Shown here one piece after another: positions 6,186 through 60,353 of a stretch of 64,000 nucleotides of DNA. The notes under the pieces were generated by a model that saw only the letters and a list, made by a program, of their open reading frames with translations, made no database searches and was not told the DNA's origin. The translations under genes were made by a program, and so were the position numbers. The stretch's first letter is position 1; each line of letters starts with the position of its first letter. Source of the DNA: an uncultured Ktedonobacteraceae bacterium (GTDB lineage: Bacteria; Chloroflexota; Ktedonobacteria; Ktedonobacterales; Ktedonobacteraceae); assembly GCA_964250805.1 (NCBI GenBank), contig CAXUHG010000004.1, positions 25,730 through 89,729 of the forward strand, given 5' to 3'.

Positions 6186-7310
6186 ATGAAACCACGTTTT
6201 ACGCTCGGAGTCGAAGAAGAATTTCAGATGGTGGATAAACACACTGGTCAGCTTGCCTCTCACATTCATACGATCCTGGAAAAAGGCACACCTATTCTCG
6301 GAGAGAGCATCAAGGCGGAGATGCTGCAATCGACCGTTGAACTCGTTACCGATGTGTGCCCAACAATGCATGATGCACGACGCGAGGTACAGCGACTACG
6401 TAATGCGCTCGCGCGGATGGTCGATGAGGAAGGTCTGGCACTCATTAGCGCGGGCACTCATCCCAATGCCCGTTGGCAGGATCAGCAGCGAACTCATAAT
6501 GATCGCTATCTCTTGCTGGAAGAGGAATATCAAGATGTGGGTCGCTCAATCTTGATATTTGGTCTGCATGTACACGTTGGTATAGAAGAGCGTTCGATCA
6601 CCATTCCACTCATGAATCAGGTACGGACATGGCTTCCGCACCTGCTTGCAATCTCGTCGAACTCGCCGTTCTGGGCGGATCGCTATTCAGGTACAAAATC
6701 GTATCGTGCGGTGGTGTGGAAACGCTTTCCACGCTCTGGCATTCCTGATACGTTCACCTCCATGAACGACTTTGACAACTATGTCGAACACCTGATACGC
6801 ACTGGTTGCATCGACAATGGCAAGCGCATCTGGTGGGATGTACGTCCACACGCCTTCTTCAATACTCTCGAGTTTCGCATCTGCGATATGCCTGCCACCA
6901 TTGAGGATACGATGGGAATCGTGGCTCTCTGTCAGGCACTCGTAGCAAAACTGCACTGGCTCTACACGCACAACATGGCGACGCATGTGTTGCCACGTCA
7001 CTTTCTTGAGGAGAACAAGTGGCGTGCCATGCGCTACGGACTCGACGCCGAGGTAGTTGACTTCGTACAGGAACGCCGCCTGAGTATGCGCGAATCTATC
7101 GAAGAACTGCTTGACTTTGTGGAAGACGTAATCGACGACCTCGGCAGCCGTCGAGAGATCAACTATCTCCGTGACCTGCTAGAAGACCCACGCGGCACCG
7201 GAGCTGACCGCCAAATCGCCGTATATAACCAAACGAACGATACACAAGCCGTAACAAACTTCTTGATGCAACAAACAATGCAAGGTATGACACTGCACAC
7301 TACACGCTAA
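6186..7310 (+). CDS. ybdK: Carboxylate-amine ligase, YbdK / glutamate-cysteine ligase family 2
   Basis: 374 aa. The N-terminus MKPRFTLGVEEEFQMVD and the overall length are characteristic of the GCS2/YbdK family. Confidence 0.85.
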   Translation: MKPRFTLGVEEEFQMVDKHTGQLASHIHTILEKGTPILGESIKAEMLQSTVELVTDVCPTMHDARREVQRLRNALARMVDEEGLALISAGTHPNARWQDQQRTHNDRYLLLEEEYQDVGRSILIFGLHVHVGIEERSITIPLMNQVRTWLPHLLAISSNSPFWADRYSGTKSYRAVVWKRFPRSGIPDTFTSMNDFDNYVEHLIRTGCIDNGKRIWWDVRPHAFFNTLEFRICDMPATIEDTMGIVALCQALVAKLHWLYTHNMATHVLPRHFLEENKWRAMRYGLDAEVVDFVQERRLSMRESIEELLDFVEDVIDDLGSRREINYLRDLLEDPRGTGADRQIAVYNQTNDTQAVTNFLMQQTMQGMTLHTTR

Positions 7311-7357
7311 TAAATTTTCAGAGCGATGGCGGATGCCATCGCTCTGAAAATTTATTA
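7308..7357. terminator. Perfect 23-bp inverted repeat with a 4-nt loop; putative bidirectional terminator
   Basis: TAATAAATTTTCAGAGCGATGGC-ggat-GCCATCGCTCTGAAAATTTATTA. The arms contain the stop codons of both convergent genes (7308-7310 and 7355-7357). Confidence 0.6.
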
Positions 7358-7846
7358 GCTGCCGTATTGCATCTTCCATTGCATCTGTGATTGTTGCAGA
7401 CCAATCAGTTCTTGCTCTAGCTGAATAATTTGTTGCTGCAACTGCTGCTTCTGCTGTTGTGGGCCAAGCAAACGCATATCCTCAAACCACTTATAACCAT
7501 GCTTTAGAATGCCTTCTGGCACGAAGGCCGCGGTCTGGTTGTATTGTGCGCGTGTCGCCGACATCTTCGTATTGACCTCTTTGAGATACAGCTTCATCTG
7601 CTTGATTTGAAGTTTCAGTTGCTTGATCTGGTCTTTATAAGGGTCTTGTGTCCTGGTACTTCGCGTGTATCCTCTACTCCTCGGAGTACGAGGAGCCGGA
7701 GCTTGTTCCTCTTGTTGATCATATATCGGATAGGGATCAATCGGGGGTCTTTGCATCACAGCCCCAGGAGCTTGTAGCGCACTGCCACAATTTTGACAAA
7801 AGCGTGCGCCATCTTGATTGTGCGCTCCGCAATTAGCGCAATACAT
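7355..7846 (-). CDS. Zinc-ribbon protein with a Q-rich coiled-coil tail
   Basis: N-terminus MYCANCGAHNQDGARFCQNCGSAL (CxxC-x12-CxxC), a low-complexity linker, then a heptad-like Q/K/L-rich C-terminus. Confidence 0.6.
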   Translation of the reverse strand: MYCANCGAHNQDGARFCQNCGSALQAPGAVMQRPPIDPYPIYDQQEEQAPAPRTPRSRGYTRSTRTQDPYKDQIKQLKLQIKQMKLYLKEVNTKMSATRAQYNQTAAFVPEGILKHGYKWFEDMRLLGPQQQKQQLQQQIIQLEQELIGLQQSQMQWKMQYGS

Positions 7847-7904: not shown

Positions 7905-7950
7905 ATCGTCAATCTGCATATGTCCTTGCTGCCATATGCAGATTGACGAT
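7905..7950. terminator. Perfect 18-bp inverted repeat with a 10-nt loop, immediately 3' of the 7954-9024 gene
   Basis: ATCGTCAATCTGCATATG-tccttgctgc-CATATGCAGATTGACGAT. Confidence 0.55.
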
Positions 7951-9627: not shown

Positions 9628-9700
9628 ACAATCAAGTTTGATATATAGCAATTGCTGGCGGCTCTGCCGCCAGCAATTGCTATATATCAAACTTGATTGT
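9628..9700. terminator. Perfect 34-bp inverted repeat with a 5-nt loop
   Basis: ACAATCAAGTTTGATATATAGCAATTGCTGGCGG-ctctg-CCGCCAGCAATTGCTATATATCAAACTTGATTGT. The right arm contains the last codons and the stop (9680-9682) of the regulator gene. Confidence 0.6.
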
Positions 9701-12095: not shown

Positions 12096-12130
12096 GAAGA
12101 GCGGGAACTTAGTGCGGCTTCCTGCTCTTC
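12096..12130. terminator. 12-bp stem (one G.T pair) with an 11-nt loop, between convergent genes
   Basis: GAAGAGCGGGAA-cttagtgcggc-TTCCTGCTCTTC. Confidence 0.45.
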
Positions 12131-13510: not shown

Positions 13511-13566
13511 TTTCTCTTTGTGTTATTCCAGCAAGGCTAGTCTTGCTGGAATAACACAAAGAGAAA
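13511..13566. terminator. Perfect 25-bp inverted repeat with a 6-nt loop
   Basis: TTTCTCTTTGTGTTATTCCAGCAAG-gctagt-CTTGCTGGAATAACACAAAGAGAAA, starting 1 nt after the stop of the isomerase gene. Confidence 0.6.
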
Positions 13567-13664: not shown

Positions 13665-14837
13665 ATGGACCTACACGTTGAGCAGACAGAACCGTCCCAA
13701 CATGCTGAGCTAGATGGAGAGAGACAGGGCAAGGCACGCGAATACGCGCGTATGCGTCGTCGCCTCTCGTTCGTCAACATTGGCATCTCGGTGCTTGCGG
13801 TTCTTGTCATCTTCTTGATTGGCTTCGATGTATGGCTACGGAATGTCCTGGCATCCCTACACTGGCAACCGCTTACAGGTTGGTTTCCCCTCATTATCGC
13901 CTGCTATCTCCTGGTATTCACCGTTGGCTACACGCTTGTCACGTCTCCGCTCTCGTATTATGGCTTCGTATTGTCACACCGCTATGGTCTCTCAACAATG
14001 TCACTACGCGGTTGGCTTGTCGATCAATTAAAGGGTTTTGCGCTTGGCCTCGTGTTCGAGATTATCGTCGTTGAACTCATCTATTTTCTGTTAGCCACAC
14101 AGCCGCAGCTATGGTGGCTCTGGGTTGCGCTCATTCTGCTATTCTTCTCTGTCGTGATGGCAAACCTTGCCCCTGTGCTGCTGTTGCCACTTTTCTACAA
14201 ATTCAGTCCTCTGCCTGATGGTGAGTTGAAGCAGCGGCTTCTAGCCTTAGCAGACCGCGCTAATACACGGGTGCAGGGTGTCTTCACCATGCATATGAGC
14301 AGCAAGACTACGGCGGCAAATGCGGCTCTCATGGGACTTGGCAATACACGACGTATCGTGCTAGGGGACACCATGCTGGATCGCTACACGCCCGACGAAA
14401 TCGAGGTGGTGCTGGCACACGAACTGGGACATCAGGTACATTCCGATATCTGGAAACTGATTATCAGCCAGTCGCTTTTGACGCTTATAGGACTCTACTT
14501 GTTCAATCTGTGCCTATCCTGGGCAACCACACACCTTGACCGCTATTCCGGCCTCTCCGACCCCGCTACACTCCCGTTATTGCTTGTCCTCACGGGTATT
14601 TTCGGCTTTCTTATCGCGCCACTCACCAATGGCTATAGTCGGGCCGTTGAGTATCAAGCCGACGAATATGCTCTGCAAGCAACGCATAAGGTTGAGTCAT
14701 TCAAAAGTGCGATGACACGGCTTGCCAATCAGAATCTTGCCGAGGTCGAGCCATCGCCTCTCGTCGAGTTCCTGTTCTACGATCATCCCTCCATCGGGAA
14801 ACGCTTGGTACACGCCGAACAATTTGCGAACAAATAA
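13665..14837 (+). CDS. M48-family (Ste24/HtpX-like) zinc metallopeptidase, polytopic membrane protein
   Basis: HEXXH motif LAHELGHQVH and several TM helices. I moved the start to the ATG at 13665 (SD AGGAG at 13651-13655) because the track start at 13518 lies inside the preceding hairpin. Confidence 0.8.
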   Translation: MDLHVEQTEPSQHAELDGERQGKAREYARMRRRLSFVNIGISVLAVLVIFLIGFDVWLRNVLASLHWQPLTGWFPLIIACYLLVFTVGYTLVTSPLSYYGFVLSHRYGLSTMSLRGWLVDQLKGFALGLVFEIIVVELIYFLLATQPQLWWLWVALILLFFSVVMANLAPVLLLPLFYKFSPLPDGELKQRLLALADRANTRVQGVFTMHMSSKTTAANAALMGLGNTRRIVLGDTMLDRYTPDEIEVVLAHELGHQVHSDIWKLIISQSLLTLIGLYLFNLCLSWATTHLDRYSGLSDPATLPLLLVLTGIFGFLIAPLTNGYSRAVEYQADEYALQATHKVESFKSAMTRLANQNLAEVEPSPLVEFLFYDHPSIGKRLVHAEQFANK

Positions 14838-14842
14838 ACAAC

Positions 14843-14875
14843 AGTGCAGGGAGACCGCAAGGGTCTCCCTGCACT
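14843..14875. terminator. GC-rich 14-bp hairpin between convergent genes
   Basis: AGTGCAGGGAGACC-gcaag-GGTCTCCCTGCACT. Confidence 0.6.
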
Positions 14876-14880
14876 TTCTC

Positions 14881-15960
14881 TTATTTCGCTTCAAGTGCCT
14901 GCTTAAAGGCCGCGAGTTGTGTACCTACCTCGTCGATGCTGCCGCCTGGCATGCCCATCAGCGGCTCATCGACGCCGCCCTCCGCCCATGTATCCAGTTT
15001 CGCAACAACCTCTTGTGGCGTGCCAATAATGGAGGTAGCGTCGAGCATACGTGGACTCACGGCGGCTACCGCGCTCTTCAAGCCCTTCTTATTAGCCTCG
15101 ATTACCGCCTGCACATCCTCGCCAAAGCCTTGCCGCGTCAACATGTCGGCGTAGTACACGCCCATACGCGCGATATAGTAGGCAAGTGGCTGAGCAGCAT
15201 TCATCATCGCCGTCTTGCGCGTCTCCTCGTCCGCATTTTCGGGTAGCAGAACGCTCGTGATGTATGGAGCAATCGCAGCACTGTGCGCGGGTCGTCTTGC
15301 CTTGAGCGAACCGGCGTCGAGTTGAGCGCGAAGTTCGCCCCAGCGATTGCCGGGCCAGTACACTGGCAGAATACCATCAGCTATCTCGCCTGATTGCTCG
15401 ACGTTTTTAGGACCCATCGCGGCAATGTAAATTGGCAAATCAGGACGCAAGGGTTTGAAGCGAAGCGTGAAGCCGCGCTCAAGATGGAAGAATTCGCCGT
15501 TGTAGACTAGCTTTTCGCCGCGCAGAATCATCCTGATGATCTCAACATACTCGCGTGTTCGCTTGACTGGCTTCTCGAACTTGACGCCATGCCAATGCTC
15601 TATCACATTCGCCCCCGATGGTCCGAGGCCGAGCAGAATGCGTCCACCAGAGCGCTCATCGAGCGTCGCAACGGTGCTAGCAATAAGGGCGGGAGTACGT
15701 GAGTAAATATTGGCGATGCCCGCTCCAATCTTGATATGCTGAGTCTCGCGCACTAAATCGCTCATCGACGTAAAAAGCTCGTAGCCCCACGACTCACCAA
15801 GCCATACTGAATCAAAGCCCAGTTGGTCGGCGAGTTTCACCTTCTCGATAACTGCGTTCCACTCGCCGGGAAAATTCGGCGAGTCCGCCACAAAGCCTAT
15901 ACGACTACGATACGCCTTCGTTGCGTTTGCACCAGCCACAGTGTCAGTGTTTGTCGTCAT
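14881..15960 (-). CDS. Luciferase-like monooxygenase (LLM) class oxidoreductase, probably F420-dependent
   Basis: 359 aa. The segments ...AEQLGFDSVWLGESWGYE..., ...LGLGPSG... and the general LLM layout. Confidence 0.75.
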   Translation of the reverse strand: MTTNTDTVAGANATKAYRSRIGFVADSPNFPGEWNAVIEKVKLADQLGFDSVWLGESWGYELFTSMSDLVRETQHIKIGAGIANIYSRTPALIASTVATLDERSGGRILLGLGPSGANVIEHWHGVKFEKPVKRTREYVEIIRMILRGEKLVYNGEFFHLERGFTLRFKPLRPDLPIYIAAMGPKNVEQSGEIADGILPVYWPGNRWGELRAQLDAGSLKARRPAHSAAIAPYITSVLLPENADEETRKTAMMNAAQPLAYYIARMGVYYADMLTRQGFGEDVQAVIEANKKGLKSAVAAVSPRMLDATSIIGTPQEVVAKLDTWAEGGVDEPLMGMPGGSIDEVGTQLAAFKQALEAK

Positions 15961-18542: not shown

Positions 18543-19406
18543 ATGTCAACGACAGAACAATCAACGGTGATCGGCGTCTTCCGAGACCGTGCGATAGCAG
18601 ATGCCGCCATCCGTGAACTACATCAAGCAGGCTTCAGAGATGACCAGATACATCTCATGGGACACAGCGGGGGCGGCAATGCGTTAGAAGGTCTCAAGAA
18701 TCTCTTCTCTTCAAAACACACTACAACGACGACTGACACTGCCGACGAACTGACGCAGGCGGGCATCGGACAGGATAATATCGCCTATTATCAGCAGGAA
18801 ATTGAAGCAGGAAACTTCATCGTCGCAGTTCAATCCTATGGGCAGCAGAGGCAGGCAAGAGATATTCTCTATCAACATGGTGCCTACGATGCTTCAACAG
18901 ATGAGAGTCGCATTGGCGGCGGTGGACGCGTCATTCCTGTGCGTGAAGAGCGGCTACACGTAGACAAACAGGTTGTGCAGACAGGTGAGGTGGTTATTCG
19001 CAAGCGCGTCATCACCGAGAACAAAACTTTCACCATTCCTGTTACGCGCGAAGAGGTGACTATTGAACGTCTTCCCGCACGCAACGCTGCTGTGTCCACG
19101 TCTAACACACAGACGCCTAGCAATGACACATTACTTGACCGTAGAACTGATCTTGATCAAACCGATGCCCCTGTTACCGACGGTCGAGAGATGCTCAACC
19201 ACGATGGCACAATTCGCATTCTTGTGCGCGAGGAACAGGTGACATTCAACAAACAACCTGTCGTTATCGAAGAGATTCTTGTACGCAAACAGCAGGTACA
19301 GGAAAACAGAGAGATATCCGACACGCTGAAACGCGAAGAGGTACATATCGAACACAGCGGAAACATCATCATACACGATGACGGAGCAGATACAAAAGCG
19401 CAATAA
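18543..19406 (+). CDS. YsnF/AvaK (DUF2382) stress-response domain protein
   Basis: Two copies of the ...PVREERLHVDKQVVQTGEVVIRKRV... / ...REEQVTFNKQPVVIEEILVRK... pattern typical of DUF2382. Confidence 0.75.
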   Translation: MSTTEQSTVIGVFRDRAIADAAIRELHQAGFRDDQIHLMGHSGGGNALEGLKNLFSSKHTTTTTDTADELTQAGIGQDNIAYYQQEIEAGNFIVAVQSYGQQRQARDILYQHGAYDASTDESRIGGGGRVIPVREERLHVDKQVVQTGEVVIRKRVITENKTFTIPVTREEVTIERLPARNAAVSTSNTQTPSNDTLLDRRTDLDQTDAPVTDGREMLNHDGTIRILVREEQVTFNKQPVVIEEILVRKQQVQENREISDTLKREEVHIEHSGNIIIHDDGADTKAQ

Positions 19407-19473
19407 ATCTGTACATGCTAAAAGTTCTTGTGACAAATGTCACAAGAACTTTTAGCATGTACAGATTTATTGC
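19400..19473. terminator. Perfect 35-bp inverted repeat with a 4-nt loop
   Basis: GCAATAAATCTGTACATGCTAAAAGTTCTTGTGAC-aaat-GTCACAAGAACTTTTAGCATGTACAGATTTATTGC. It contains both convergent stop codons (19404-19406 and 19467-19469). Confidence 0.6.
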
Positions 19474-20875: not shown

Positions 20876-20890
20876 TGTGCCTCCTCGCAC

Positions 20891-20938
20891 AGGATAATAT
20901 ATCGCCAACGGATGTATCCGTTGGCAATATATTATCCT
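20891..20938. promoter_or_regulatory. 23-bp inverted repeat (one mismatch) in the divergent padR / molybdoenzyme promoter region; candidate operator
   Basis: AGGATAATATATCGCCAACGGAT-gt-ATCCGTTGGCAATATATTATCCT, lying 16 nt upstream of the padR start. Both flanking genes point away from it, so it is not a terminator position. Confidence 0.4.
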
Positions 20939-21045
20939 GAATCAGCTATTTTGTCAAGGGTAGAAATATCCGACAATTTTAGCTTAGCCAATCGTGGATA
21001 TGTCTGTTATGCTATATGTAATAGCAATTTGATATATGTATCGAG

Positions 21046-22722: not shown

Positions 22723-22724
22723 AT

Positions 22725-22794
22725 GGAAAGATAATTTTGCCCATTTCTTCATTCCGACACGTCAGAATGAAGAAATGGGCAAAATTATCTTTCC
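22725..22794. terminator. Perfect 30-bp inverted repeat with a 10-nt loop
   Basis: GGAAAGATAATTTTGCCCATTTCTTCATTC-cgacacgtca-GAATGAAGAAATGGGCAAAATTATCTTTCC, starting 3 nt after the stop codon. Confidence 0.6.
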
Positions 22795-23009
22795 AACAAC
22801 ATCCCCCAAAACGCACATATACATAGACGCATGCAACTATTTTAACCACAATTCGTTATTCATTGCGAAACGTCAAAAAGACATGGCACAACTTGTCCGC
22901 TTTTGGCCTTTTCATTGATTGTAGTATGTAGGGGGAACGACTCCTTAACAAAAACAGCGACAACACAGATATCGGTTGGCGCGGCAAACGTTATGGGGTC
23001 GGCGGTTAT

Positions 23010-24590: not shown

Positions 24591-24827
24591 ATGGTACGAC
24601 AGTGTGCATGGTGTCTGCGACTCATGAACAATGCAGGAGAGCATCTCTCACCAGCACCACTGCCCAAAATCTACGACGCGACACATGGAATATGTAGTGT
24701 ATGTGGAGTGCGGTGGATGGAGCAGGCAATGGGGACACAGGATACAGGCGAGTTTTTTTTCCAATTGCAAACACAGAACAATGCGTCACCTTCCCTTACA
24801 GAACAAAAAACGCCAGCAACGATATAA
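24591..24827 (+). CDS. Small 4-Cys (CxxC ... CxxC) protein, hypothetical
   Basis: 78 aa. The segment CAWCLRLM...ATHGICSVCG resembles a recurrent small zinc-binding motif (C.WC ... HGIC..C). Confidence 0.4.
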   Translation: MVRQCAWCLRLMNNAGEHLSPAPLPKIYDATHGICSVCGVRWMEQAMGTQDTGEFFFQLQTQNNASPSLTEQKTPATI

Positions 24828-24890
24828 GAACAAGAGAAAGAGCGACTCAAACGGTTTTGCCGTTTGAGTTGCTCTTTCTCTTGTTCTTAT
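24824..24890. terminator. 31-bp inverted repeat (one G.T pair) with a 5-nt loop
   Basis: ATAAGAACAAGAGAAAGAGCGACTCAAACGG-ttttg-CCGTTTGAGTTGCTCTTTCTCTTGTTCTTAT. The arms contain both convergent stops (24825-24827 and 24887-24889). Confidence 0.6.
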
Positions 24891-25753
24891 AGAAACTGTT
24901 GGATGAGGTTGTTCACTTCGTCGGGTTGCTCTTGCTGCACCCAGTGACCGCTATCGGCGATACGCCGTACCTGTATCTTTGGCACCCATTGCTCAAGGTT
25001 GTGGGTCAGGGCGATATCGAGGGCCACGTCTTGCTCACCCCATATCAAGAGCGTTGGAGCTTGAATAACCGTCTGCTTGCTACTCCTCGTCGAACCAAAG
25101 TTGCCCCTACGAAAGACCTCACGATAGTAGTTCAGAGCGGCGGTTAATGCCCCTGGCTTGCTCATTGTTGCTTGATAGAGTAGCAAAAGGTCGGGTGGAA
25201 ACTCCGCTTTCTGCACGGCACTCTGATAGATGGCGCGTCCTATCGCTTGTGCGTGGTTGGCACCGAGCAGAACTTCGGGCAACCAGGGAATTTGGAAGAA
25301 GAAAATATACCAGCTTTTCCTGAGTTGCTTGAAGGTACGAAGTTCGCGTTGCAACGCCCACGGATGCGGCGCGTTCAACACAATCAGGCGTTGCGTCATC
25401 TCTGGATACCTCATCGCAAAAGTCCATGCAAGGGCACCGCCCCAGTCGTGTCCAACGATAATCGCCTTCTCATATCCAAGCCCTTTAATCAAGCCTTCGA
25501 TATCACGTAACAGATTGGGCACGTCGTACCCTGTACGCGGCTTATCGGTCTCATTATAGCCGCGTAGGTCGGGCGCAACAACGGTATAGCCCTGCTCCGC
25601 CAGAAAGAGAATCTGGTGCCGCCACGAATACCAGAACTCAGGGAAGCCGTGTAGCATCACGACTAAGGGACCTTCACCTTGAATGACATAATGCATGCGT
25701 ATGCCATTGGTGATGATGTTACGATGCTGCCATGTCTCCGTTGTTGTTGCCAT
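24887..25753 (-). CDS. Alpha/beta hydrolase (epoxide-hydrolase / haloalkane-dehalogenase-like)
   Basis: HGFPEFWYSWRHQ oxyanion region and nucleophile elbow GHDWGG; 288 aa. Confidence 0.8.
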   Translation of the reverse strand: MATTTETWQHRNIITNGIRMHYVIQGEGPLVVMLHGFPEFWYSWRHQILFLAEQGYTVVAPDLRGYNETDKPRTGYDVPNLLRDIEGLIKGLGYEKAIIVGHDWGGALAWTFAMRYPEMTQRLIVLNAPHPWALQRELRTFKQLRKSWYIFFFQIPWLPEVLLGANHAQAIGRAIYQSAVQKAEFPPDLLLLYQATMSKPGALTAALNYYREVFRRGNFGSTRSSKQTVIQAPTLLIWGEQDVALDIALTHNLEQWVPKIQVRRIADSGHWVQQEQPDEVNNLIQQFL

Positions 25754-25767
25754 TACAAAAACTCCTC

Positions 25768-25827
25768 TTTTCCTAAAGAGAGATTGGGAACGGCACTCGT
25801 GCCGTTCCCAATCTCTCTTTAGGAAAA
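25768..25827. terminator. Perfect 29-bp inverted repeat with a 2-nt spacer, 3' of sdhB
   Basis: TTTTCCTAAAGAGAGATTGGGAACGGCAC-tc-GTGCCGTTCCCAATCTCTCTTTAGGAAAA. It abuts the sdhB stop at 25828-25830. Confidence 0.6.
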
Positions 25828-29395: not shown

Positions 29396-29459
29396 ATGTA
29401 TTGACGAAAAATATTTACAGCGCGCGACAGCGAACTGTAAATATTTTTCGTCAATACAT
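29396..29459. promoter_or_regulatory. Perfect 25-bp inverted repeat with a 14-nt spacer in the divergent sdhC / lipoprotein intergenic region
   Basis: ATGTATTGACGAAAAATATTTACAG-cgcgcgacagcgaa-CTGTAAATATTTTTCGTCAATACAT. Neither flanking gene ends here. Confidence 0.4.
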
Positions 29460-29731: not shown

Positions 29732-30928
29732 ATGATTCTCTCTCGTTTGAGGAATCCAATACTTGTACCTGCCCTTCTGCTTACTGCATTGCTATTGTTA
29801 GCAAGCTGTGGTGGTAGCAGTACACCTTCAGTACAGACAAAGCCAACACCGACCCCTTCACCAACGCCAACGTTAGGGCAAGGGCAACAGATATTGAACA
29901 CAATGGCGAACAAGCTGAATACGGCTAAGACGCTACATGGGATCTTCGATCTGACCATTTCAGGACAAACTGTGAGCGGAGATGCAAATACTGAGGTGTG
30001 GAATGCGACACCAAATAAAAACCGGACTGTTGTGCTACAATCCTCGATAACGCAACTGACAACGGGAACCGTCAATGTCACCGACGGTAAGCAGCAGTGG
30101 CAATACGACCCCGCGCAAAAAGTGGTCTATACTGGCCCAGTCGTTGCTACTACAGGGACGCCAACTGGTGGACAGGGCGGCGTGGGGAGTAGTGGTACAC
30201 AAGGCAACCAGAGCCTCTTTCTGCTCAACCTTGTGCAAAGCGTCTTTACGCAAAGCGATGGTACGCTGAAATCCTCAAATGCTACCGTCAATGGACACAG
30301 TGCCTACGATATCCACGTTGTGCCTTCAACGAGCGGTACTAGTACGGGAACGCCAGCAAGCTTTAGCTATACAGGCGAAGTCTACATCGACAAAACGACG
30401 CAACAACCCGTGCAGGTCAACCTGGACATTCAAGGCGTGGGCAACGTTGTACTGAACATACCTACACTCGAACTGAGTCAGTCCATTCCTGCCAGCACCT
30501 TTACCTTTGTCGTTCCGCAAGGCGTCAAGGTGCTACCATTCTCGCAACTTAGCGCAACGCCCAGTTCTGGTAGTGGCACGCTCACGCTCGTACAGGCGCA
30601 ACAACAGGCGGGCTACCATCTCCTGAGCATTCCAGCAAGCCAGAGCGAGTACACGCTCAACGGCGTCAACGCCCTCGGTGCCCCCGGCAACCAGATATAC
30701 ACCCTCAATTACATGAAGGGTAATACCACTATCACGATTGCCGAGGGTAAACCACTCGCTAATCTTCCTGGCTCCGGTCAGTCAATCAGCATTCGTGGCA
30801 CCACCGCGACTGTTTCGACTACTGCTGGTAACACCACGCTGGTCTGGACAGAAAAGGGCGTTGGTATTCGTATTACGTCAAGTCTGAGCAGTGATCAGGT
30901 TGAGAGCATTGCGAAGAGTCTAGCGTAA
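29732..30928 (+). CDS. Lipoprotein with a LolA-like fold region and a C-terminal DUF4367-like domain
   Basis: The start is at the ATG at 29732 (SD AAGGAG at 29720-29725). Signal plus lipobox LLLASCGG, a TP-rich linker, and the C-terminus ...IRGTTATVSTTAGNTTLVWTEKGVGIRITSSLSSDQVESIAKSL. Confidence 0.6.
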   Translation: MILSRLRNPILVPALLLTALLLLASCGGSSTPSVQTKPTPTPSPTPTLGQGQQILNTMANKLNTAKTLHGIFDLTISGQTVSGDANTEVWNATPNKNRTVVLQSSITQLTTGTVNVTDGKQQWQYDPAQKVVYTGPVVATTGTPTGGQGGVGSSGTQGNQSLFLLNLVQSVFTQSDGTLKSSNATVNGHSAYDIHVVPSTSGTSTGTPASFSYTGEVYIDKTTQQPVQVNLDIQGVGNVVLNIPTLELSQSIPASTFTFVVPQGVKVLPFSQLSATPSSGSGTLTLVQAQQQAGYHLLSIPASQSEYTLNGVNALGAPGNQIYTLNYMKGNTTITIAEGKPLANLPGSGQSISIRGTTATVSTTAGNTTLVWTEKGVGIRITSSLSSDQVESIAKSLA

Positions 30929-31008
30929 CGCATTAGGAAAGAAAACATGAATGGAGATAGCAAGCGTGCTTGCTATCTCCATTCATGTTTTCTTTCCTAA
31001 TGCGTTAC
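30925..31008. terminator. Perfect 41-bp inverted repeat with a 2-nt spacer, the longest in the window
   Basis: GTAACGCATTAGGAAAGAAAACATGAATGGAGATAGCAAGC-gt-reverse complement. The left arm contains the TAA of the lipoprotein gene. The right arm encodes the last codons (V-T-H-stop) of gcvPB. Confidence 0.6.
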
Positions 31009-34247: not shown

Positions 34248-34982
34248 ATGACACATCTTTACCTTATTCGTCATGGAGAGGCAACCACGCAGATGGGGAA
34301 GTCACTACATGATTACGGCTTAACCCCCATTGGCGTGCGACAGGCGGAGAGACTGCGCAACCGTTTAGCGGCAACAGGCGAAATCGCGCCGGACGTATTT
34401 ATCGCCAGTACGCTACCACGAGCGCGTCAGACGGCACAGATTATCGCACCCGCATTTCGAGAGATGCCAATTATCTTCGACGACGAGGTACAAGAACTAC
34501 ATCCAGGCGAAGCAGAGAATATGACAGTAGATGAGTTCCGTAAGAAATTTGGCGGCTACAATCTGGACCAAAATCCCTTTCATCCCGTTTCGCCCGGAGG
34601 CGAAACGTGGGGTCAGTTCATTTTACGTGCAGGCTCGGCACTGCATCGTATCATTACCGAGCACGATGGCAAAAACATTGTCGTAGTGTGTCATGGCGGT
34701 ATAATCGACGCCTCGTTTATCTACTTCCTCAACATGGATACATTGCGTCTACCTGAAGTACGTTTTGACACGCGCAACGCCTCCATCACCTATTGGAGCA
34801 AGACAGCACCCTTTGAGAACAGGAAACCACGCTGGCGACTCGTGCGCTACAACGACGATATGCATGTGCGTGGCCTCGAAGAAAACTTCGATATTCCGTG
34901 GCAAGAGATGCCTCTACCACCCTATCAGAAATGGTTCGAGGCAGGACGACCACAATCCTCACAATCTCCCGCCGAGAAATAA
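34248..34982 (+). CDS. Histidine phosphatase (phosphoglycerate-mutase-like) family protein
   Basis: The RHGE motif in MTHLYLIRHGEAT and a later ...VVCHGGII... segment. Confidence 0.8.
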   Translation: MTHLYLIRHGEATTQMGKSLHDYGLTPIGVRQAERLRNRLAATGEIAPDVFIASTLPRARQTAQIIAPAFREMPIIFDDEVQELHPGEAENMTVDEFRKKFGGYNLDQNPFHPVSPGGETWGQFILRAGSALHRIITEHDGKNIVVVCHGGIIDASFIYFLNMDTLRLPEVRFDTRNASITYWSKTAPFENRKPRWRLVRYNDDMHVRGLEENFDIPWQEMPLPPYQKWFEAGRPQSSQSPAEK

Positions 34983-34985
34983 ATA

Positions 34986-35030
34986 AGAGGTGCAATAAAA
35001 TTGGGCGATGCCCAGTTTTATTGCACCTCT
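34986..35030. terminator. 20-bp inverted repeat (one G.T pair) with a 5-nt loop
   Basis: AGAGGTGCAATAAAATTGGG-cgatg-CCCAGTTTTATTGCACCTCT. The right arm contains the stop of the WD40 gene (35018-35020). Confidence 0.55.
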
Positions 35031-35890
35031 TGAATATTCACCTGCTTATTGCTTGCGGACACAATATAGTCATTGTTGGGAGACCATGCGACGACACGTA
35101 TCCATGCATTTTGCTCCGCATATGTCTTAACATGCTTCCCCGTAAGCGCATTCCATATCTGCACAGTTGTATCATCGCTACCAGAAACGATGCATGCGCT
35201 ATCAGGCGACCACGCAAGTGTCTTGACTGCCGCTTGATGCCCTGTATAAATGCAGAGAGTAGCCCCGTTCTGAGCATTCCATATGGAAACCGTACTCTCT
35301 TGACCAGCCGAGGCGATGTATTGACCATTTGGAGACGATTGAGTTGCATACACAGGGCCAGTATGACCGCGATACGTTTGAGCTATCGTACCATTGAACG
35401 CATCCCAAAGTTGTACGGCACCATCAAAACTCCCTGATGCGATTATTGAGTTATGTGGCAACCAGGAAACCGCAAAGATGCGATATTGGTCAGTATACGT
35501 ATAGATATGCGCTCCACTTAGAGCTTCCCAGACCTGTACTGTACTATCGCCAAAGTCGCCACCCGATGCGATAAAGCGGCTATCAGGCGACCACGCGATA
35601 TTACGCACGAAACGTACATGTTCGCTATAGATATATTGAGTTGCGCCAGTTTTTGCGTTCCAAACATGCACTCTACCATCGGTATCACCCGACGCGACAG
35701 ATGTGCCATCGGGCGACCATGCGACCGAGAGAATGTAGTTATTGTGAGCAGTGTAGACAAGAGAGGTTACGCAAGTATGGGCGTCCCACACCTGCACTGT
35801 TTTATCGCGTCCAGCGGAGGCGACGAAATGACCATCGGGCGATATTGATAGCGCAAACACATTGTCGTTATGACCTGTGTAGTGCTGCAT
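35018..35890 (-). CDS. WD40-repeat beta-propeller protein (about 7 blades)
   Basis: Repeated ...H...V..VAWSPDG..IASG..D.TVQ(V/I)W(D/N)... units. The start is at the ATG at 35890, 2 nt after the mogA stop. Confidence 0.85.
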   Translation of the reverse strand: MQHYTGHNDNVFALSISPDGHFVASAGRDKTVQVWDAHTCVTSLVYTAHNNYILSVAWSPDGTSVASGDTDGRVHVWNAKTGATQYIYSEHVRFVRNIAWSPDSRFIASGGDFGDSTVQVWEALSGAHIYTYTDQYRIFAVSWLPHNSIIASGSFDGAVQLWDAFNGTIAQTYRGHTGPVYATQSSPNGQYIASAGQESTVSIWNAQNGATLCIYTGHQAAVKTLAWSPDSACIVSGSDDTTVQIWNALTGKHVKTYAEQNAWIRVVAWSPNNDYIVSASNKQVNIQEVQ

Positions 35891-47428: not shown

Positions 47429-47435
47429 AAATTAG

Positions 47436-47483
47436 GATGTTATTGCTTGTTGTGGCACATATGCTGCAACAAGCAATAACATC
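47436..47483. terminator. 17-bp perfect inverted repeat (extendable with mismatches) 3' of pdxS
   Basis: GATGTTATTGCTTGTTG-14 nt-CAACAAGCAATAACATC. Confidence 0.5.
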
Positions 47484-47516
47484 TGAATCACAGAAACATA
47501 AAAATAGGGTAGTAAA

Positions 47517-49321: not shown

Positions 49322-51256
49322 ATGCAACATGTGATCACTGACGATCTGAACGCTCTGCTGGCTGCCCTTCCGCCGAGCATTCGCGAGGCGGTCTATCGGC
49401 TCGAAAACCGAAGCGAACTGCTGGAGATCGTAATGGACCTCGGACGTATTGCCGAGGGCCGCTTCCCAGATGGGGAGGTGATCCTTAGCTCTGAGCCTGT
49501 GACCTCGGCTGACCTCGAATATGTGGTTGAGCACATCGGTGAGTTTGGCGACGATAACCGTGCAGGTATCGAACGCACACTGCACCGCATTAGCGCATTA
49601 CGCAACCGCAAAGGCAAAGTAGTCGGCTTGACCTGTCGTATTGGGCGTGCGGTCCTTGGCAGTATCGCCCTGATTCGCGACATCGTTGAGCAGGGTCAAT
49701 CAATTTTAATACTTGGTCGCCCAGGTGTGGGTAAAACCACTCTGTTGCGTGAAATAGCTCGCGTCCTCGCGGACGAAGCCAATAAACGTGTTGTTGTCGT
49801 CGATACCTCGAACGAGATTGCGGGCGATGGTGATATCCCCCACTCCGGCATAGGGCGTGCGCGTCGTATGCAGGTGGCTCGCACCGTCGAGCAGCACGCA
49901 GTCATGATCGAGGCTGTGCAGAACCATATGCCACAGGTCATCGTGATCGACGAGATCGGCACCGAATTGGAGGCACTTGCAGCCCGTACTATCGCGGAAC
50001 GTGGCGTACAGTTAGTCGCAACCGCGCACGGTAACTCGCTGGGCAACCTGCTGGTCAATCCGACGCTCTCCGACCTCATCGGTGGCATCCAGACCGTGAC
50101 GCTCGGTGACGAAGAGGCGCGTCGTCGTCACACACAGAAGACGATCAACGAGCGCAAATCCGCCCCGACCTTCGATGTGGTGGTGGAGCAGCAAAGCTGG
50201 GACGAGGCGGTCGTCCACCGCGACGTTGCCGATACTATTGACAACATGCTGCGTGGTCAAGCCACCGTCGCCGAAGAGCGCACACGCAACGAGGAGACGG
50301 GTGAGGTTAGCGTGCGCCGTATCACCACTGGCGGCATGGATGTGCCCTCATGGGGTAGCGGCGGACTGGGTGGACCTGATCAGGGCTTCACACCACGCAC
50401 CTTCGAGCGACCAGAACGCCCTGAACGCTCGAACCGTAATGGCGGACGAGGCGGCAACTGGAACCAATATCGTTCGAGTGGAAGTTCACAGGATGTGCGT
50501 TCAAACGATGCAGCTATAACACGCGGCGAACGCTTTCGTGGACGAGGAGCAGAGTCTCAGCAATTTCAGCCACAGATGAGAACGCTGGCTCCAACCGGTA
50601 CGGCACCATCGGAGGTGAAGCAAATTGGTAGCACCGCCCTTATCACGACGGAACGCCCCTTCCTCGAAGAGGGCATCTACCAGCCTATCGAAGCCGAGAT
50701 GCCGGTTCCGCTGATGAAGTCGATGCGCGTCTACCCGTTTGGTGTAAACCGCGACCGACTGGCTGATGCGGCGCGAACATTGCGCGTTCCCGTTGTTATC
50801 ACAGCGAACGAACGCGAGGCCGATGCGATCATCAGCATTAAAAACTACTACAAACGTCAACCAGAGCGTTTGCAGCAAGCTGAGCAGGATCGCAAGATGA
50901 TTATCATCCTGAAAAACAACACGGTCACACAGATGCAGCATGCGCTGGCTCGCCTCTTCGACATCCCGCTCACCACAACAGAGAGTGATGGCGAAGGCGA
51001 CGAGTCAGACGAAGGAGGGTCTCCAAACGACTTGTCTAATCAAGAGTTTGATGACCCAACGAAGAAGGCTATGCTAGAGACGGAGGACGCCATTCATCAA
51101 GTCTTGAACAAGGGCTTGACAACGGCTGAACTCGCCCCTGCCAACGCCTACATTCGCCGCTTGCAGCATCAAATGGCGACGCGCTACAACCTGATTTCAA
51201 GGAGTCGAGGCAAGGAACCACAAAGAAGAGTGAAGATATTCCGCTCGCGGGATTAA
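49322..51256 (+). CDS. SpoIIIAA/Ycf45-like AAA ATPase with a C-terminal R3H nucleic-acid-binding domain
   Basis: Walker [17 protein letters not shown], ...[18 protein letters not shown]..., Walker B VIVIDEIG, a disordered G/R-rich linker, and the C-terminus ...[30 protein letters not shown]. Confidence 0.75.
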
Positions 51257-51326
51257 CAAGTGTCAAAGACATAAAAAACTGGCAGACCGTATGGTCTGCC
51301 AGTTTTTTATGTCTTTGACACTTGTT
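51255..51326. terminator. Perfect 34-bp inverted repeat with a 4-nt loop
   Basis: AACAAGTGTCAAAGACATAAAAAACTGGCAGACC-gtat-reverse complement. The left arm overlaps the TAA stop at 51254-51256. Confidence 0.6.
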
Positions 51327-51415
51327 CATGTCCCTTTTTATACTTCCCTGTGTTCTTATCTATATCATCATGCATGATGCAAACCTGATAACATGTTGAG
51401 ATAGGACGAACATAC

Positions 51416-54442: not shown

Positions 54443-54506
54443 AGTCATTCTGCAAACATTCCCCCCGCTGTTCGTGAACAGCGGGGGGAATGTTTGCAGA
54501 ATGACT
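54443..54506. terminator. Perfect 31-bp inverted repeat with a 2-nt spacer
   Basis: AGTCATTCTGCAAACATTCCCCCCGCTGTTC-gt-GAACAGCGGGGGGAATGTTTGCAGAATGACT. Confidence 0.6.
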
Positions 54507-59297: not shown

Positions 59298-60251
59298 GTG
59301 GCGGTTCAGATAGCAGTAAATATTTCGGTTGTTATTTGTGCTTATACGGAGGCACGTTGGAGTAATCTTGTACAGGCGGTACAATCCATTCAGCAACAAC
59401 ATATGTCGCCGCGCGAAATCATCGTCGTCATCGACCACAATTCGGCATTATTTGAACGTGCTTGCGCTAACATCGAAGGCATCACCGTCATAGAGAACAC
59501 GGGTCCCAAAGGGATATCGGGGGCGCGTAGCACGGGCGTTGCAAAGGCAAAGGGGGCATTGATCGCCTGTCTCGACGATGATGCCATCGCCGATGCCGAC
59601 TGGCTAGAAAAACTTGGTGATTGTTGTACAGACCCGATGGTCATGGGAGCAGGAAGTAGTGTACAGCCACACTGGGAAAAGCAACGCCCACAATGGTTTC
59701 CTACAGAATTCTACTGGGTACTTGGCTGTTCCTATCAACCAACATTTGCTCAACCCGTAGAGGTACGCAACCTCTGGGCTGGCTGTATGTGTGTGCGCCG
59801 CGAAGTATTCGAGACCGTAGGAGCGTTCAGAAGCGACATTGGGCATGTCGGTAAACAGGTACTTGGAGGTGAGGAGACGGAACTGTGCATTCGTGCCAAG
59901 CAACACTGGCCCGATAAAAAGTTTCTCTACGAGTCACGCGTAAACATCCACCACTACATACCCACGCATCGCGCGACCTGGAAGTACTTCCTCTCGCGTT
60001 GCTATGCCGAAGGCTTCTCAAAGGCCATCATCTCTCGCTACGTCGGTGTACAAGATAGTCTCTCAACCGAGAGTTTATACACATTCACTATGCTACCGTT
60101 GGGAGTCATACGTGGCGTAGCAGATTGCTTGCTACGCCGCGATAGTACAGGTATACAACGAGCAGGTGCGATTGTTGCTGGCTTCACGACAACTGCCGTA
60201 GGCTATATTATGGGTACATTCTCTCGAACTCCTCAAGCACAAAACACTTAA
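59298..60251 (+). CDS. Family 2 glycosyltransferase
   Basis: GTG start with SD GGAGGAAG. ISVVICAYTEARW, the DDD motif in ACLDDDAIAD, and C-terminal amphipathic/TM helices. Confidence 0.8.
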   Translation: MAVQIAVNISVVICAYTEARWSNLVQAVQSIQQQHMSPREIIVVIDHNSALFERACANIEGITVIENTGPKGISGARSTGVAKAKGALIACLDDDAIADADWLEKLGDCCTDPMVMGAGSSVQPHWEKQRPQWFPTEFYWVLGCSYQPTFAQPVEVRNLWAGCMCVRREVFETVGAFRSDIGHVGKQVLGGEETELCIRAKQHWPDKKFLYESRVNIHHYIPTHRATWKYFLSRCYAEGFSKAIISRYVGVQDSLSTESLYTFTMLPLGVIRGVADCLLRRDSTGIQRAGAIVAGFTTTAVGYIMGTFSRTPQAQNT

Positions 60252-60323
60252 ATTTGTATTGCATGTTAAACTTTGATTTGTTACCTCTAGTAACAAATCA
60301 AAGTTGAACATGCAATACAAATT
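60251..60323. terminator. 34-bp inverted repeat (one mismatch) with a 5-nt loop
   Basis: AATTTGTATTGCATGTTAAACTTTGATTTGTTAC-ctcta-GTAACAAATCAAAGTTGAACATGCAATACAAATT. It begins at the last base of the stop codon. Confidence 0.6.
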
Positions 60324-60353
60324 TGTTGATATAGGAAGCGCAGTAACAGTATA

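What the first reader, a model, noticed from the sequence alone, without database searches (positions are those of the whole stretch)
30925..31008. Gene ends are marked by unique, extremely long perfect palindromes that embed the flanking stop codons
Seen in sequence: I verified 16 inverted repeats at gene ends by hand. Their arm lengths in bp are 23 (7308), 18 (7905), 34 (9628), 12 (12096), 25 (13511), 14 (14843), 35 (19400), 30 (22725), 31 (24824), 29 (25768), 41 (30925), 20 (34986), 17 (47436), 34 (51255), 31 (54443) and 34 (60251). Loops are only 2-14 nt, and each repeat has at most one mismatch or G.T pair. Each sequence is unique rather than part of a dispersed family, and few have a flanking U-tract. 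At convergent junctions the arms contain the stop codons of both genes (7308, 19400, 24824, 30925). At 30925 the arms even contain the last three sense codons of gcvPB. One arm therefore looks like an inverted copy of a gene's 3' end. Established knowledge: intrinsic terminators normally have 5-12-bp stems plus a U-tract, and perfect palindromes longer than about 30 bp are usually unstable in bacteria. Inference: this lineage either uses unusually long U-tract-independent hairpins as bidirectional terminators or RNA-stability elements, or it has a mutational mechanism (template switching or snap-back synthesis at gene ends) that generates them. Either explanation deserves a systematic look.
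Basis: partly seen in the sequence, partly recalled or inferred. Interest (0 to 1): 0.62.

Follow-up and report, generated by a model that had tools for sequence, protein, structure and literature searches.

The report
Giant self-correcting palindromes at gene ends
This soil bacterium (Ktedonobacteraceae) ends hundreds of genes with one-of-a-kind, almost flawless 50-85-base DNA palindromes that look like two-way transcription stop signals, and comparison with a sister species indicates that the two halves stay identical because one is copied from the other in the DNA.

Summary
The 6.0-Mb Ktedonobacteraceae assembly has 770 palindromes (arm >=15 bp, loop <=15 nt, <=1 mismatch). Local shuffles give about 2.5. 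Of these, 685 are unique in sequence, and arm length peaks at 28-33 bp. They sit within a few nt of stop codons, occupy 33% of convergent junctions, and are absent from gene interiors. That is bidirectional intrinsic-terminator architecture. Four features indicate maintenance at the DNA level rather than as RNA stems:
- G.U pairs are no commoner than A.C mismatches, and only about 1.3% of pairs are non-Watson-Crick.
- 37% are symmetric through the apex (loop 0-2 nt).
- Against the closest species, 209 of 1130 aligned arm positions changed on both arms and 44 on one arm. Independent mutation predicts about 5% and 43%.
- 44 indels are mirrored, and no asymmetric bulge occurs in 547 palindromes.
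Best reading: these are terminator or 3'-end hairpins, lengthened and kept perfect by arm-to-arm copying (template switching). Termination itself is untested because no RNA data exist.

The parts
30925..31008 (.). Focal palindrome between a DUF4367-domain gene (+, stop 30926-30928) and gcvPB (-, stop 30997-30999). Arms are 41 nt, the loop is 2 nt, and pairing is perfect. The right arm covers the last 3 gcvPB sense codons.
   Evidence: RNA fold gives -68.7 and -71.6 kcal/mol on the two strands, z about -14. G006 has a diverged 39-nt-arm palindrome at the same junction.
7306..7359 (.). Palindrome with 25-nt arms and a 4-nt loop at a convergent junction. Both stop codons lie inside the arms.
   Evidence: G006 has a 28-nt-arm, loop-0 palindrome here with a mirrored 7-nt insertion.
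7905..7950 (.). Palindrome with 18-nt arms and a 10-nt loop, after a minus-strand gene.
   Evidence: In G006 the loop sequence has become stem through a 16-nt inverted copy, giving 32-nt arms and a 3-nt loop.
9628..9700 (.). Palindrome with 35-nt arms and a 3-nt loop, perfect, overlapping the stop of the gene at 9680-10840 (-).
   Evidence: G006 has only an imperfect hairpin here, -24 kcal/mol.
12096..12130 (.). Short hairpin with 12-nt arms and an 11-nt loop, after the gene at 11124-12080 (+).
13511..13566 (.). Palindrome with 25-28-nt arms directly after the stop at 13510.
   Evidence: There is a mirrored 2-nt indel relative to G006.
14832..14886 (.). Hairpin at a convergent junction. Its core is a copy of a dispersed repeat (CAGGGAGACC-GCAAG-GGTCTCCCTG), so it is not a unique palindrome.
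   Evidence: G006 has a unique 31-34-nt-arm palindrome at this junction.
19400..19473 (.). Palindrome with 36-nt arms and a 2-nt loop, perfect, at a convergent junction. Both stops lie inside the arms.
   Evidence: -58 kcal/mol. It shows 10 mirrored substitutions and 2 mirrored indels relative to G006.
22724..22795 (.). Palindrome with 35-nt arms (97%) just after the stop at 22722.
   Evidence: G006 contigs break here.
24823..24891 (.). Palindrome with 32-nt arms (97%) overlapping the stop of the gene at 24887-25753 (-).
25768..25827 (.). Palindrome with 29-nt arms and a 2-nt loop, perfect, between two minus-strand genes.
34978..35038 (.). Imperfect palindrome (29 nt at 86%; 22-nt core) at a convergent junction.
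47431..47488 (.). Imperfect palindrome (27 nt at 85%; 17-nt core) after the stop at 47428.
   Evidence: G006 has a REPIN-type element here instead.
51252..51329 (.). Palindrome with 37-nt arms (97%) overlapping the stop at 51254-51256. Its core is a textbook terminator: CUGGCAGACC-GUAU-GGUCUGCCAG-UUUUUUAU.
   Evidence: -65.9 kcal/mol.
54443..54506 (.). Palindrome with 31-nt arms and a 2-nt loop, perfect, 10 nt after the stop at 54433.
   Evidence: It shows 7 mirrored substitutions and 1 mirrored indel relative to G006.
60250..60324 (.). Palindrome with 35-nt arms (97%) overlapping the stop at 60249-60251.
20890..20939 (.). Palindrome with 24-nt arms and a 2-nt loop. It lies at the start of the padR-like gene in a divergent spacer, not at a gene end. 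Same kind of object, different context.
29396..29459 (.). Palindrome with 30-nt arms (93%) in a divergent spacer. It is not conserved in G006.

Best explanation
The palindromes are Rho-independent, bidirectional-type transcription terminators or 3'-end hairpins. Each has an A-rich tract, a 10-18-bp GC-richer core stem, a very short apex and a U-rich tract. Their dyad symmetry has been extended outward to, and sometimes into, the stop codons. It is kept almost perfect by a DNA-level process that copies one arm from the other. The most likely process is intramolecular template switching during replication or repair ('quasipalindrome correction'). A mutation in one arm is quickly either erased or written onto the other arm. 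The sequence therefore drifts at close to the neutral rate while pairing stays perfect.

Shown: the placement, polarity, uniqueness and perfection of the palindromes; mirrored substitutions and indels between species; and conservation of position.

Inferred: that RNA polymerase terminates there, and that the copying process is template switching rather than, for example, mismatch repair of extruded hairpins.
For: Function:
- The outer edge lies a median 2-6 nt from the stop. In tandem gene pairs the next gene starts a median 104 nt downstream.
- 33% of convergent junctions carry a palindrome, against 6.6% of divergent ones. It fills a median 92% of the convergent spacer.
- 3'-arm positions 1-12 are about 52% GC. 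Positions 13-31 are 45-55% T.
- 232 of 418 have a T-tract in the 3' arm, against 26 with an A-tract. G006 replicates this, 43 against 2.
- Genes without palindromes have no A-rich region after the stop.
- 51252 contains a textbook terminator core.
- 46 of 58 orthologous junctions in G006 also carry a palindrome.

DNA-level copying:
- About 75% of 25-39-bp arms are perfect.
- Non-Watson-Crick pairs are about 1.3% of 18,209 pair positions.
- In tandem contexts, oriented to the mRNA, G.U-type mismatches number 34 and A.C-type 28.
- 202 of 547 have loops of 0-2 nt. The loop 0:2:4 counts are 99:67:65, against 6:19:75 (per cent) expected for an unconstrained tetraloop.
- Between G000 and G006, 209 of 1130 aligned pair columns are mirrored substitutions and 44 changed on one arm only. 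Independent hits at the 4-fold-site divergence of 0.319 predict 5.2% and 43%.
- There are 44 mirrored internal indels, and no asymmetric bulge in 547 palindromes.
- At 7905 a loop was converted to stem by a 16-nt inverted copy.
- Arm distance is JC 0.24-0.29, against 0.415 at 4-fold sites and 5% difference at codon positions 1+2.
- Mismatch counts per palindrome fit a geometric distribution far better than a Poisson (chi-square 6.7 against 64.7). This is expected if one event resets a whole palindrome.

The mechanism is documented elsewhere: PMC8794818 (template switching creates and maintains hairpins) and PMC7202029 and PMC6357072 (quasipalindrome template-switch mutagenesis in E. coli).
Against: - No transcript 3'-end data exist for this organism or for cultured relatives.
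- 44% of long palindromes lack a >=6 of 8 T-tract.
- In E. coli a terminator only a few nt from the stop is repressed by the terminating ribosome (PMC4824070). Here the core stem starts about 15-20 nt downstream.
- In the nearest strain found in public reads (X2 and X6 contigs, about 91% identical), one interior arm position differs without a mirrored change.
- Mirrored substitutions have a ts:tv ratio of about 1:1, against 2:1 at 4-fold sites. This may partly reflect alignment noise.
- Gene calls are my own crude ORF and codon-usage calls.
- No gene-content difference explains why some relatives lack the trait: xseA and rho are present in nearly all.
Confidence: 0.6

Rival explanations
1. The elements are ordinary RNA-level selection. 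The hairpins are terminators or stability elements kept paired only by purifying selection and classical compensatory point mutations, with no special DNA-level process.
For: They lie at gene ends with U-tract polarity, and position is conserved between species. Structured RNAs in general show covariation.
Against: - G.U pairs are not tolerated any more than A.C pairs (34 against 28). They make up about 0.4% of pairs, although one wobble in a 30-bp, -60 kcal/mol stem should be nearly neutral.
- Symmetry runs through the apex, where RNA cannot pair.
- Mirrored substitutions are 18.5% of columns, against a maximum of about 5% from independent double hits, while arms evolve at 57-70% of the synonymous rate.
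- There are 44 mirrored indels and no bulges.
- Stability is far beyond what termination needs.
Confidence: 0.1
2. The palindromes are non-functional mutational scars. Template switching creates palindromes everywhere, and they survive only in 3' spacers, where they do no harm.
For: Arm sequence evolves at a near-neutral rate. There is turnover or loss at some junctions. Two lie in divergent spacers in this window (20890 and 29396). The trait is patchy among relatives.
Against: - The strong polarity (A-rich 5' arm, T-rich 3' arm; 232 against 26) is not predicted by symmetry or by local composition.
- The core is GC-richer than the outer arm (52% against 32%).
- The elements abut the stop tightly.
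- 46 of 58 junctions keep a palindrome across about 0.4 substitutions per synonymous site.
Confidence: 0.12
3. The elements are mainly RNA 3'-end protection or processing elements (blocks to 3' exonucleases, or RNase III substrates) rather than terminators, like the 3' inverted repeats of plastid mRNAs.
For: The perfect helices are very long and stable, well above the roughly 20 bp that RNase III needs (my own knowledge). 44% lack a clear U-tract. Analogous long stem-loops lie between plastid genes of Galdieria (PMC4316638).
Against: The internal U-tract sits at canonical terminator spacing in the majority. This reading is not exclusive of the main explanation, and it does not explain the DNA-level signatures.
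Confidence: 0.15
4. The palindromes are copies of mobile palindromic repeat families (REP/REPIN/MITE) or integron attC sites.
For: The same genome does contain GTAG-type REPINs and a CAGGGAGACC family (earlier finding e1-4009770).
Against: 685 of 770 are singletons by BLAST. No position in the arms has a base frequency above 0.55. They occur at convergent junctions next to housekeeping genes such as gcvPB.
Confidence: 0.02
5. The palindromes are assembly or sequencing artefacts of a metagenome-assembled genome.
For: 42 palindromes lie within 100 nt of a contig end, against 6.4 expected. A few G-run/C-run 'palindromes' at contig ends look artefactual.
Against: The same kind of palindrome is at the same junctions in independently assembled genomes and in isolate genomes: Dictyobacter aurantiacus, 26-nt arms at the gcvPB stop, and G006 and G011. 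The contig-end excess is what palindromes do to short-read assemblers, not the reverse.
Confidence: 0.01

Closest known systems
Bidirectional intrinsic (Rho-independent) terminators with A-tract, hairpin and U-tract (described for B. subtilis, E. faecalis, E. coli and others: PMC12207403; E. coli inverted-repeat map: PMC6060812)
   Same: They lie after stop codons, especially between convergent genes. They have a GC-richer core stem, a short loop, a U-rich tract 3' of the core and a complementary A-rich tract 5' of it.
   Different: - Arms are 25-41 bp. Typical stems are 7-9 bp in E. coli and B. subtilis, and 15 bp is called 'extraordinarily long' (PMC10325885). Median stem-nucleotide totals are 20-35 nt (PMC12207403). 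Many of these would exceed TransTermHP's 59-nt limit.
- Pairing is perfect through the A/U tracts and out to the stop codons.
- Loops of 0-2 nt are common.
- There is no G.U tolerance.
- The elements start 2-6 nt from the stop.
Quasipalindrome correction and template-switch mutation (Ripley's model; Lovett laboratory, E. coli: PMC7202029, PMC6357072; evolutionary role in RNA hairpins: PMC8794818)
   Same: Differences between species are what one-step templated copying between arms produces: mirrored substitutions, mirrored indels and loop-to-stem conversion.
   Different: Here the process would act at hundreds of loci. It would do so at a rate high enough (roughly 100 times the per-site mutation rate, by inference) to keep 30-40-bp arms about 99% Watson-Crick across a whole genus. 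The enzymology is unknown, and ExoVII, which restrains this process in E. coli (my own knowledge), is present.
Intergenic stem-loops of the Galdieria sulphuraria plastid genome (PMC4316638) and 3' inverted repeats of plastid mRNAs
   Same: Many long, sequence-unique stem-loops lie in intergenic regions at gene ends. 36 are reported, 20 of them with stems longer than 40 bp.
   Different: That case is an organelle genome with tens of elements, not hundreds. No U-tract architecture or concerted-evolution analysis is reported in that paper.
REP/BIME/REPIN elements
   Same: They are palindromic, intergenic and often sit after stop codons. They co-occur in this genome (36400-36551, 57272-57414).
   Different: REPs are multi-copy sequence families mobilised by RAYT transposases. 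These palindromes are single-copy.

Membership tests
Intrinsic (Rho-independent) terminator, bidirectional type | Stem-loop followed directly by a U-rich tract on the transcribed strand | tested here: met
   232 of 418 long gene-end palindromes have >=6 of 8 T in the 3' arm, starting a median 14 nt from the loop, against 26 with an A-tract. 51252 is a canonical example. The feature is not met by about 44% at this threshold.
Intrinsic (Rho-independent) terminator, bidirectional type | Complementary A-tract upstream, so that the opposite strand also reads hairpin plus U-tract | tested here: met
   Perfect dyad symmetry makes the 5' arm A-rich wherever the 3' arm is T-rich.
Intrinsic (Rho-independent) terminator, bidirectional type | Located at the ends of transcription units, downstream of stop codons | tested here: met
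   The palindrome starts a median 2-6 nt from the stop. 33% of convergent junctions carry one, and gene interiors are essentially empty.
Intrinsic (Rho-independent) terminator, bidirectional type | Transcript 3' ends map in the U-tract; termination occurs without Rho | not testable with these tools
   No RNA runs exist for this organism or for Dictyobacter.
Intrinsic (Rho-independent) terminator, bidirectional type | Usual size: stem about 7-15 bp, loop 3-8 nt, with G.U pairs and bulges tolerated | tested here: not met
   The arm-length mode is 28-33 bp. 37% have loops of 0-2 nt. G.U is about as frequent as A.C. No bulges were found.
Quasipalindrome template-switch (arm-to-arm copying) products | Changes in one arm are matched by the complementary change in the other, including multi-base changes and indels, more often than independent mutation allows | tested here: met
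   209 mirrored against 44 one-arm substitutions in 1130 columns, where independent mutation predicts 5% and 43%. There are 44 mirrored indels and a 16-nt loop-to-stem inverted copy at 7905.
Quasipalindrome template-switch (arm-to-arm copying) products | Each event is a single replication-linked step (clustered changes arising at once) | tested here: inconclusive
   Mismatch counts are closer to geometric than to Poisson. The outer 6 bp of the 30925 arms differ from the X2/X6 strain by a cluster of 2 substitutions and 1 indel. No strain-level phylogeny was available.
Quasipalindrome template-switch (arm-to-arm copying) products | Dependence on replication and on 3' exonucleases or other host factors | not testable with these tools
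   xseA is present in 29 of 31 relatives, whether rich or poor in palindromes. This is not informative.
REP/REPIN/MITE repeat families | Many copies sharing one sequence | tested here: not met
   685 of 770 are singletons. The families that do exist were separated out.
Integron attC sites | Conserved core motifs at the ends, imperfect stems with extrahelical bases, same-orientation cassette arrays | tested here: not met
   No conserved position in the arms exceeds a frequency of 0.55. The stems are perfect and unbulged. Convergent contexts are frequent. An integrase was not searched for.

The most novel reading that the evidence does not exclude
In Ktedonobacteraceae, transcription terminators have become self-copying DNA palindromes. 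A lineage-specific, high-rate intramolecular copying process creates, lengthens and proofreads them at hundreds of loci. The process is template switching or an equivalent, roughly 100 times faster than point mutation per site. It occasionally overwrites stop codons and the last codons of neighbouring genes. The lineage would then be a natural genome-scale model for how hairpin-forming regulatory elements originate and stay perfect without classical compensatory evolution.
Probability: 0.5. Interest if true: 0.72.

Novelty: new variant of a known kind. Interest (0 to 1): 0.6.

Why it matters
- It gives a genome-wide natural example (hundreds of loci, a whole genus, plus cultured Dictyobacter) of a mutational process maintaining RNA/DNA hairpins. 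That directly tests the proposal that template switching, not stepwise compensation, builds and preserves stems (PMC8794818).
- These elements exceed the size limits of standard terminator predictors, so they would be missed in annotation of this lineage.
- They break short-read assemblies (42 palindromes within 100 nt of contig ends, against 6.4 expected). This is relevant to the quality of Chloroflexota metagenome-assembled genomes.
- They may serve as very strong, compact, bidirectional terminator parts.
- Arms that invade coding ends suggest a way in which non-coding structure can rewrite protein C-termini and stop codons.

Tried and rejected
- Rfam scan of the window: only two tRNAs, with no RNA family at the palindromes.
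- RNA-seq evidence: no run holds this organism (best share of words 0.10, DNA). For Dictyobacter there is only a soil metatranscriptome at 0.06.
- Laying public contigs on 30925 and 19400 gave relatives of about 88-92% identity whose contigs mostly stop at the palindrome centre. Only one useful strain comparison resulted.
- Gene-loss explanations: ExoVII large subunit (PF02601) and Rho (PF07497) are present in nearly all 31 relatives, whether palindrome-rich or palindrome-poor.
- Mobile-family explanation: rejected by clustering.
- Artefact explanation: rejected by independent assemblies and isolate genomes.
- 'Genic' palindromes: these turned out to lie at over-extended ORF starts or at stops.
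- The simple terminator scan found no more sites than shuffles, because it caps stems at 20 pairs and needs the T-run outside the stem. It did pick up the cores at 24834, 22737 and 14843.
- Literature searches found nothing on palindromes or terminators in Ktedonobacteria.
- My first 'orientation' analysis of tandem genes is uninformative about strand, because a perfect palindrome reads the same on both strands. What matters is the choice between A-first and T-first palindromes.
Full report
WHAT IS THERE

The window is contig C4:25730-89729 of a 6.03-Mb, 249-contig assembly with 49% G+C. Relatives of its gcvPB gene are all Ktedonobacteraceae or Ktedonobacterales (Chloroflexota), including cultured Dictyobacter species.

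The focal one, 30925-31008, has 41-nt arms, 100% complementarity and a 2-nt loop. It lies between a DUF4367-domain gene (+, stop 30926-30928) and gcvPB (-, stop 30997-30999). Its right arm also covers the last three gcvPB codons. As RNA it folds at -69 to -72 kcal/mol, z about -14.

GENOME-WIDE CHECK

My scan (arm >=15, loop <=15, <=1 mismatch) finds 770 palindromes. Two locally shuffled genomes gave 5 in total with arm >=15 and none with arm >=17.

- The arm-length distribution does not decay. It dips at 17-23 bp and peaks at 28-33 bp.
- All-against-all BLAST leaves 685 singletons. The few families are the GTAG-type REPINs and a CAGGGAGACC repeat already known in this genome (earlier finding e1-4009770).
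- With my own crude gene calls, 261 of 800 convergent, 347 of 3095 tandem and 51 of 768 divergent junctions carry one.
- Almost all of the 42 unique 'genic' cases sit at over-extended ORF starts or at stops.
- The outer edge lies a median 2-6 nt from the stop codon, and 26-41% overlap the stop or the last codons. In tandem pairs the next gene begins a median 104 nt further on.
- At convergent junctions the spacer is a median 66 nt, and the palindrome fills a median 92% of it.

TERMINATOR ANATOMY

- In the 3' arm, positions 1-12 from the loop are about 52% G+C. Positions 13-31 are 45-55% T, so the 5' arm is A-rich.
- 232 of 418 long unique gene-end palindromes have >=6 of 8 T in the 3' arm, starting a median 14 nt from the loop. 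Only 26 have the equivalent A-tract. G006 replicates this, 43 against 2.
- A perfect palindrome reads the same on both strands, so this is a choice between two possible kinds (A-first or T-first). It is not a strand effect.
- Local composition does not explain it. Genes without palindromes have A 0.30 and T 0.27 after the stop.
- 51252 contains a textbook core: CUGGCAGACC-GUAU-GGUCUGCCAG-UUUUUUAU.

This is the architecture of bidirectional intrinsic terminators (PMC12207403), but about three times longer. Typical stems are 7-9 bp, and 15 bp is called extraordinary (PMC10325885).

DNA-LEVEL SIGNATURES

1. About 75% of 25-39-bp arms are perfect. Non-Watson-Crick pairs are about 1.3% of 18,209 pair positions. 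In tandem contexts, oriented to the mRNA, G.U-type mismatches (34) are no commoner than A.C-type (28). A wobble in a -60 kcal/mol stem should be nearly neutral for RNA.
2. 202 of 547 have 'loops' of 0-2 nt. Within the even class, loops 0:2:4 number 99:67:65, against 6:19:75 (per cent) expected if a tetraloop were free sequence. RNA cannot pair there, so the symmetry is a property of the DNA.
3. No palindrome continues beyond an asymmetric bulge (0 of 547).

COMPARISON WITH THE CLOSEST SPECIES

G006 is in the same genus at about 86% nucleotide identity. 4-fold sites differ at 31.9% (JC 0.415), and codon positions 1+2 differ at 5.0%. About 985 kb of G006 was fetched.

- 58 orthologous junctions were found. 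46 carry a palindrome in both species, and 44 have alignable arms.
- Of 1130 aligned pair columns, 871 are identical. 209 changed on both arms and remain Watson-Crick in both species. 44 changed on one arm only.
- Independent mutation at the synonymous divergence predicts about 5% mirrored and about 43% one-arm changes.
- 44 internal indels are mirrored.

Individual cases:
- At 19400 there are 10 mirrored substitutions and 2 mirrored indels.
- At 7306 there is a mirrored 7-nt insertion.
- At 13511 there is a mirrored 2-nt indel.
- At 7905 the 10-nt loop of G000 is stem in G006, through a 16-nt inverted copy.

Arm distance (JC 0.24-0.29) is 57-70% of the synonymous distance. Evolution that is both fast and clean is what unbiased arm-to-arm conversion predicts. 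It is not what purifying selection with stepwise compensation predicts. Mismatch counts per palindrome are closer to geometric than to Poisson (chi-square 6.7 against 64.7). This is expected if one event resets a whole palindrome. By inference, the resetting rate is of the order of 100 times the per-site mutation rate.

At the gcvPB junction, many relatives have their own palindrome abutting the conserved V/A-T-H-stop end of gcvPB.

CAVEATS

- In contigs of a nearer strain (runs X2 and X6, about 91% identical), one interior position of the 30925 palindrome differs on one arm only. The outermost 6 bp are not palindromic there, through a cluster of 2 substitutions and 1 indel.
- Mirrored substitutions have ts:tv of about 1:1, against 2:1 at 4-fold sites. 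Part of this may be alignment noise or multi-base replacement.

SPREAD AMONG RELATIVES

- Almost all sampled genomes of the same genus have them: 106 in 800 kb of G006, with the same length mode, and 9 in 80 kb of G011. G012 has only one 17-bp example in 40 kb.
- Dictyobacter isolates have 9 in 30 kb.
- Other genera of the family are patchy: G013 has 0 in 80 kb, and G014 has 2 in 52 kb.
- The high-G+C lineages sampled (G021, G024, Thermogemmatispora) have none.
- xseA and rho are present in nearly all, so no simple gene loss explains the trait.

ARTEFACT?

No. The palindromes recur at the same junctions in independent assemblies and in isolate genomes. Instead, the palindromes damage assemblies:
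- 42 lie within 100 nt of a G000 contig end, against 6.4 expected.
- G006 breaks or has N-gaps at several of them.
- Logan contigs stop at the dyad centre.

LITERATURE

Searches found nothing on this in Ktedonobacteria. The relevant published work covers:
- the terminator architecture (PMC12207403, PMC6060812);
- the functional value of long stems, which resist processive antitermination (PMC10325885);
- ribosome occlusion of stop-proximal terminators (PMC4824070);
- template-switch maintenance of hairpins (PMC8794818, PMC7202029, PMC6357072);
- a plastid analogue in Galdieria (PMC4316638);
- a 118,019-genome survey of inverted repeats, which reports terminator-associated repeats with mainly 4-5-nt spacers and conserved arms, and does not mention Chloroflexota (PMC13155455).

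Earlier notes of this scan reached similar readings on other Ktedonobacteraceae windows (e1-4053173, e1-3867470). I treated them as leads, and I had run the tests above on this genome independently before seeing them.

VERDICT

The elements are best read as bidirectional terminator-type 3'-end hairpins. A DNA-level copying process has enlarged them and keeps them perfect. This is a new, extreme variant of known kinds. Termination activity and the enzymology are the open steps.

Noticed in passing
window 14832-14886 (G006 counterpart in L101/L115): At this convergent junction G000 carries a copy of the dispersed CAGGGAGACC-GCAAG-GGTCTCCCTG repeat, a family of about 28 members. G006 has a unique 31-34-bp-arm palindrome at the same junction. 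A repeat element seems to have replaced, or inserted into the centre of, a private palindrome.
   Followed up: partly
window 47431-47488 (G006 counterpart in L150): G006 has a 146-nt GTAG-type REPIN at the junction where G000 has a 17-27-bp palindrome. REPINs and private palindromes appear to compete for the same gene-end sites.
   Followed up: no
G000 contig ends genome-wide; G006 contigs C487, C531, C325, C274: Short-read contigs end at, or have N-gaps in, long palindromes. In G000, 42 lie within 100 nt of a contig end, against 6.4 expected. G006 breaks at 5 of 18 window palindromes. The true number of palindromes is therefore under-counted, and they limit assembly contiguity.
   Followed up: partly
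G000 contigs C121:~9226, C82:~10, C198:~6406, C2:~50859: There are 'palindromes' made of long G-runs facing C-runs (for example 21 G, CCGCC, 23 C), several of them at contig ends. They look like sequencing or assembly artefacts (poly-G), not biology.
   Followed up: no
window 20890-20939 and 29396-29459: Two long palindromes lie in divergent (promoter-side) spacers, not at gene ends. The first is at the start of a padR-like gene and could be an operator or the terminator of an unannotated transcript. The second is not conserved in G006.
   Followed up: partly
window 30922-30930, against contigs of runs X2 and X6: The outermost 6 bp of the 41-bp arms are the part that mirrors gcvPB's last codons and supplies the neighbour's TAA. 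In a strain about 91% identical they are absent, and the difference is a tight cluster of 2 substitutions and 1 deletion. This is consistent with one templated extension event.
   Followed up: partly
window 28304-28392: A 31-nt perfect inverted repeat with a 27-nt spacer lies inside the sdh operon. Each arm is itself a GC-rich mini-hairpin. It belongs to a different class from the gene-end palindromes, probably a repeat family.
   Followed up: no
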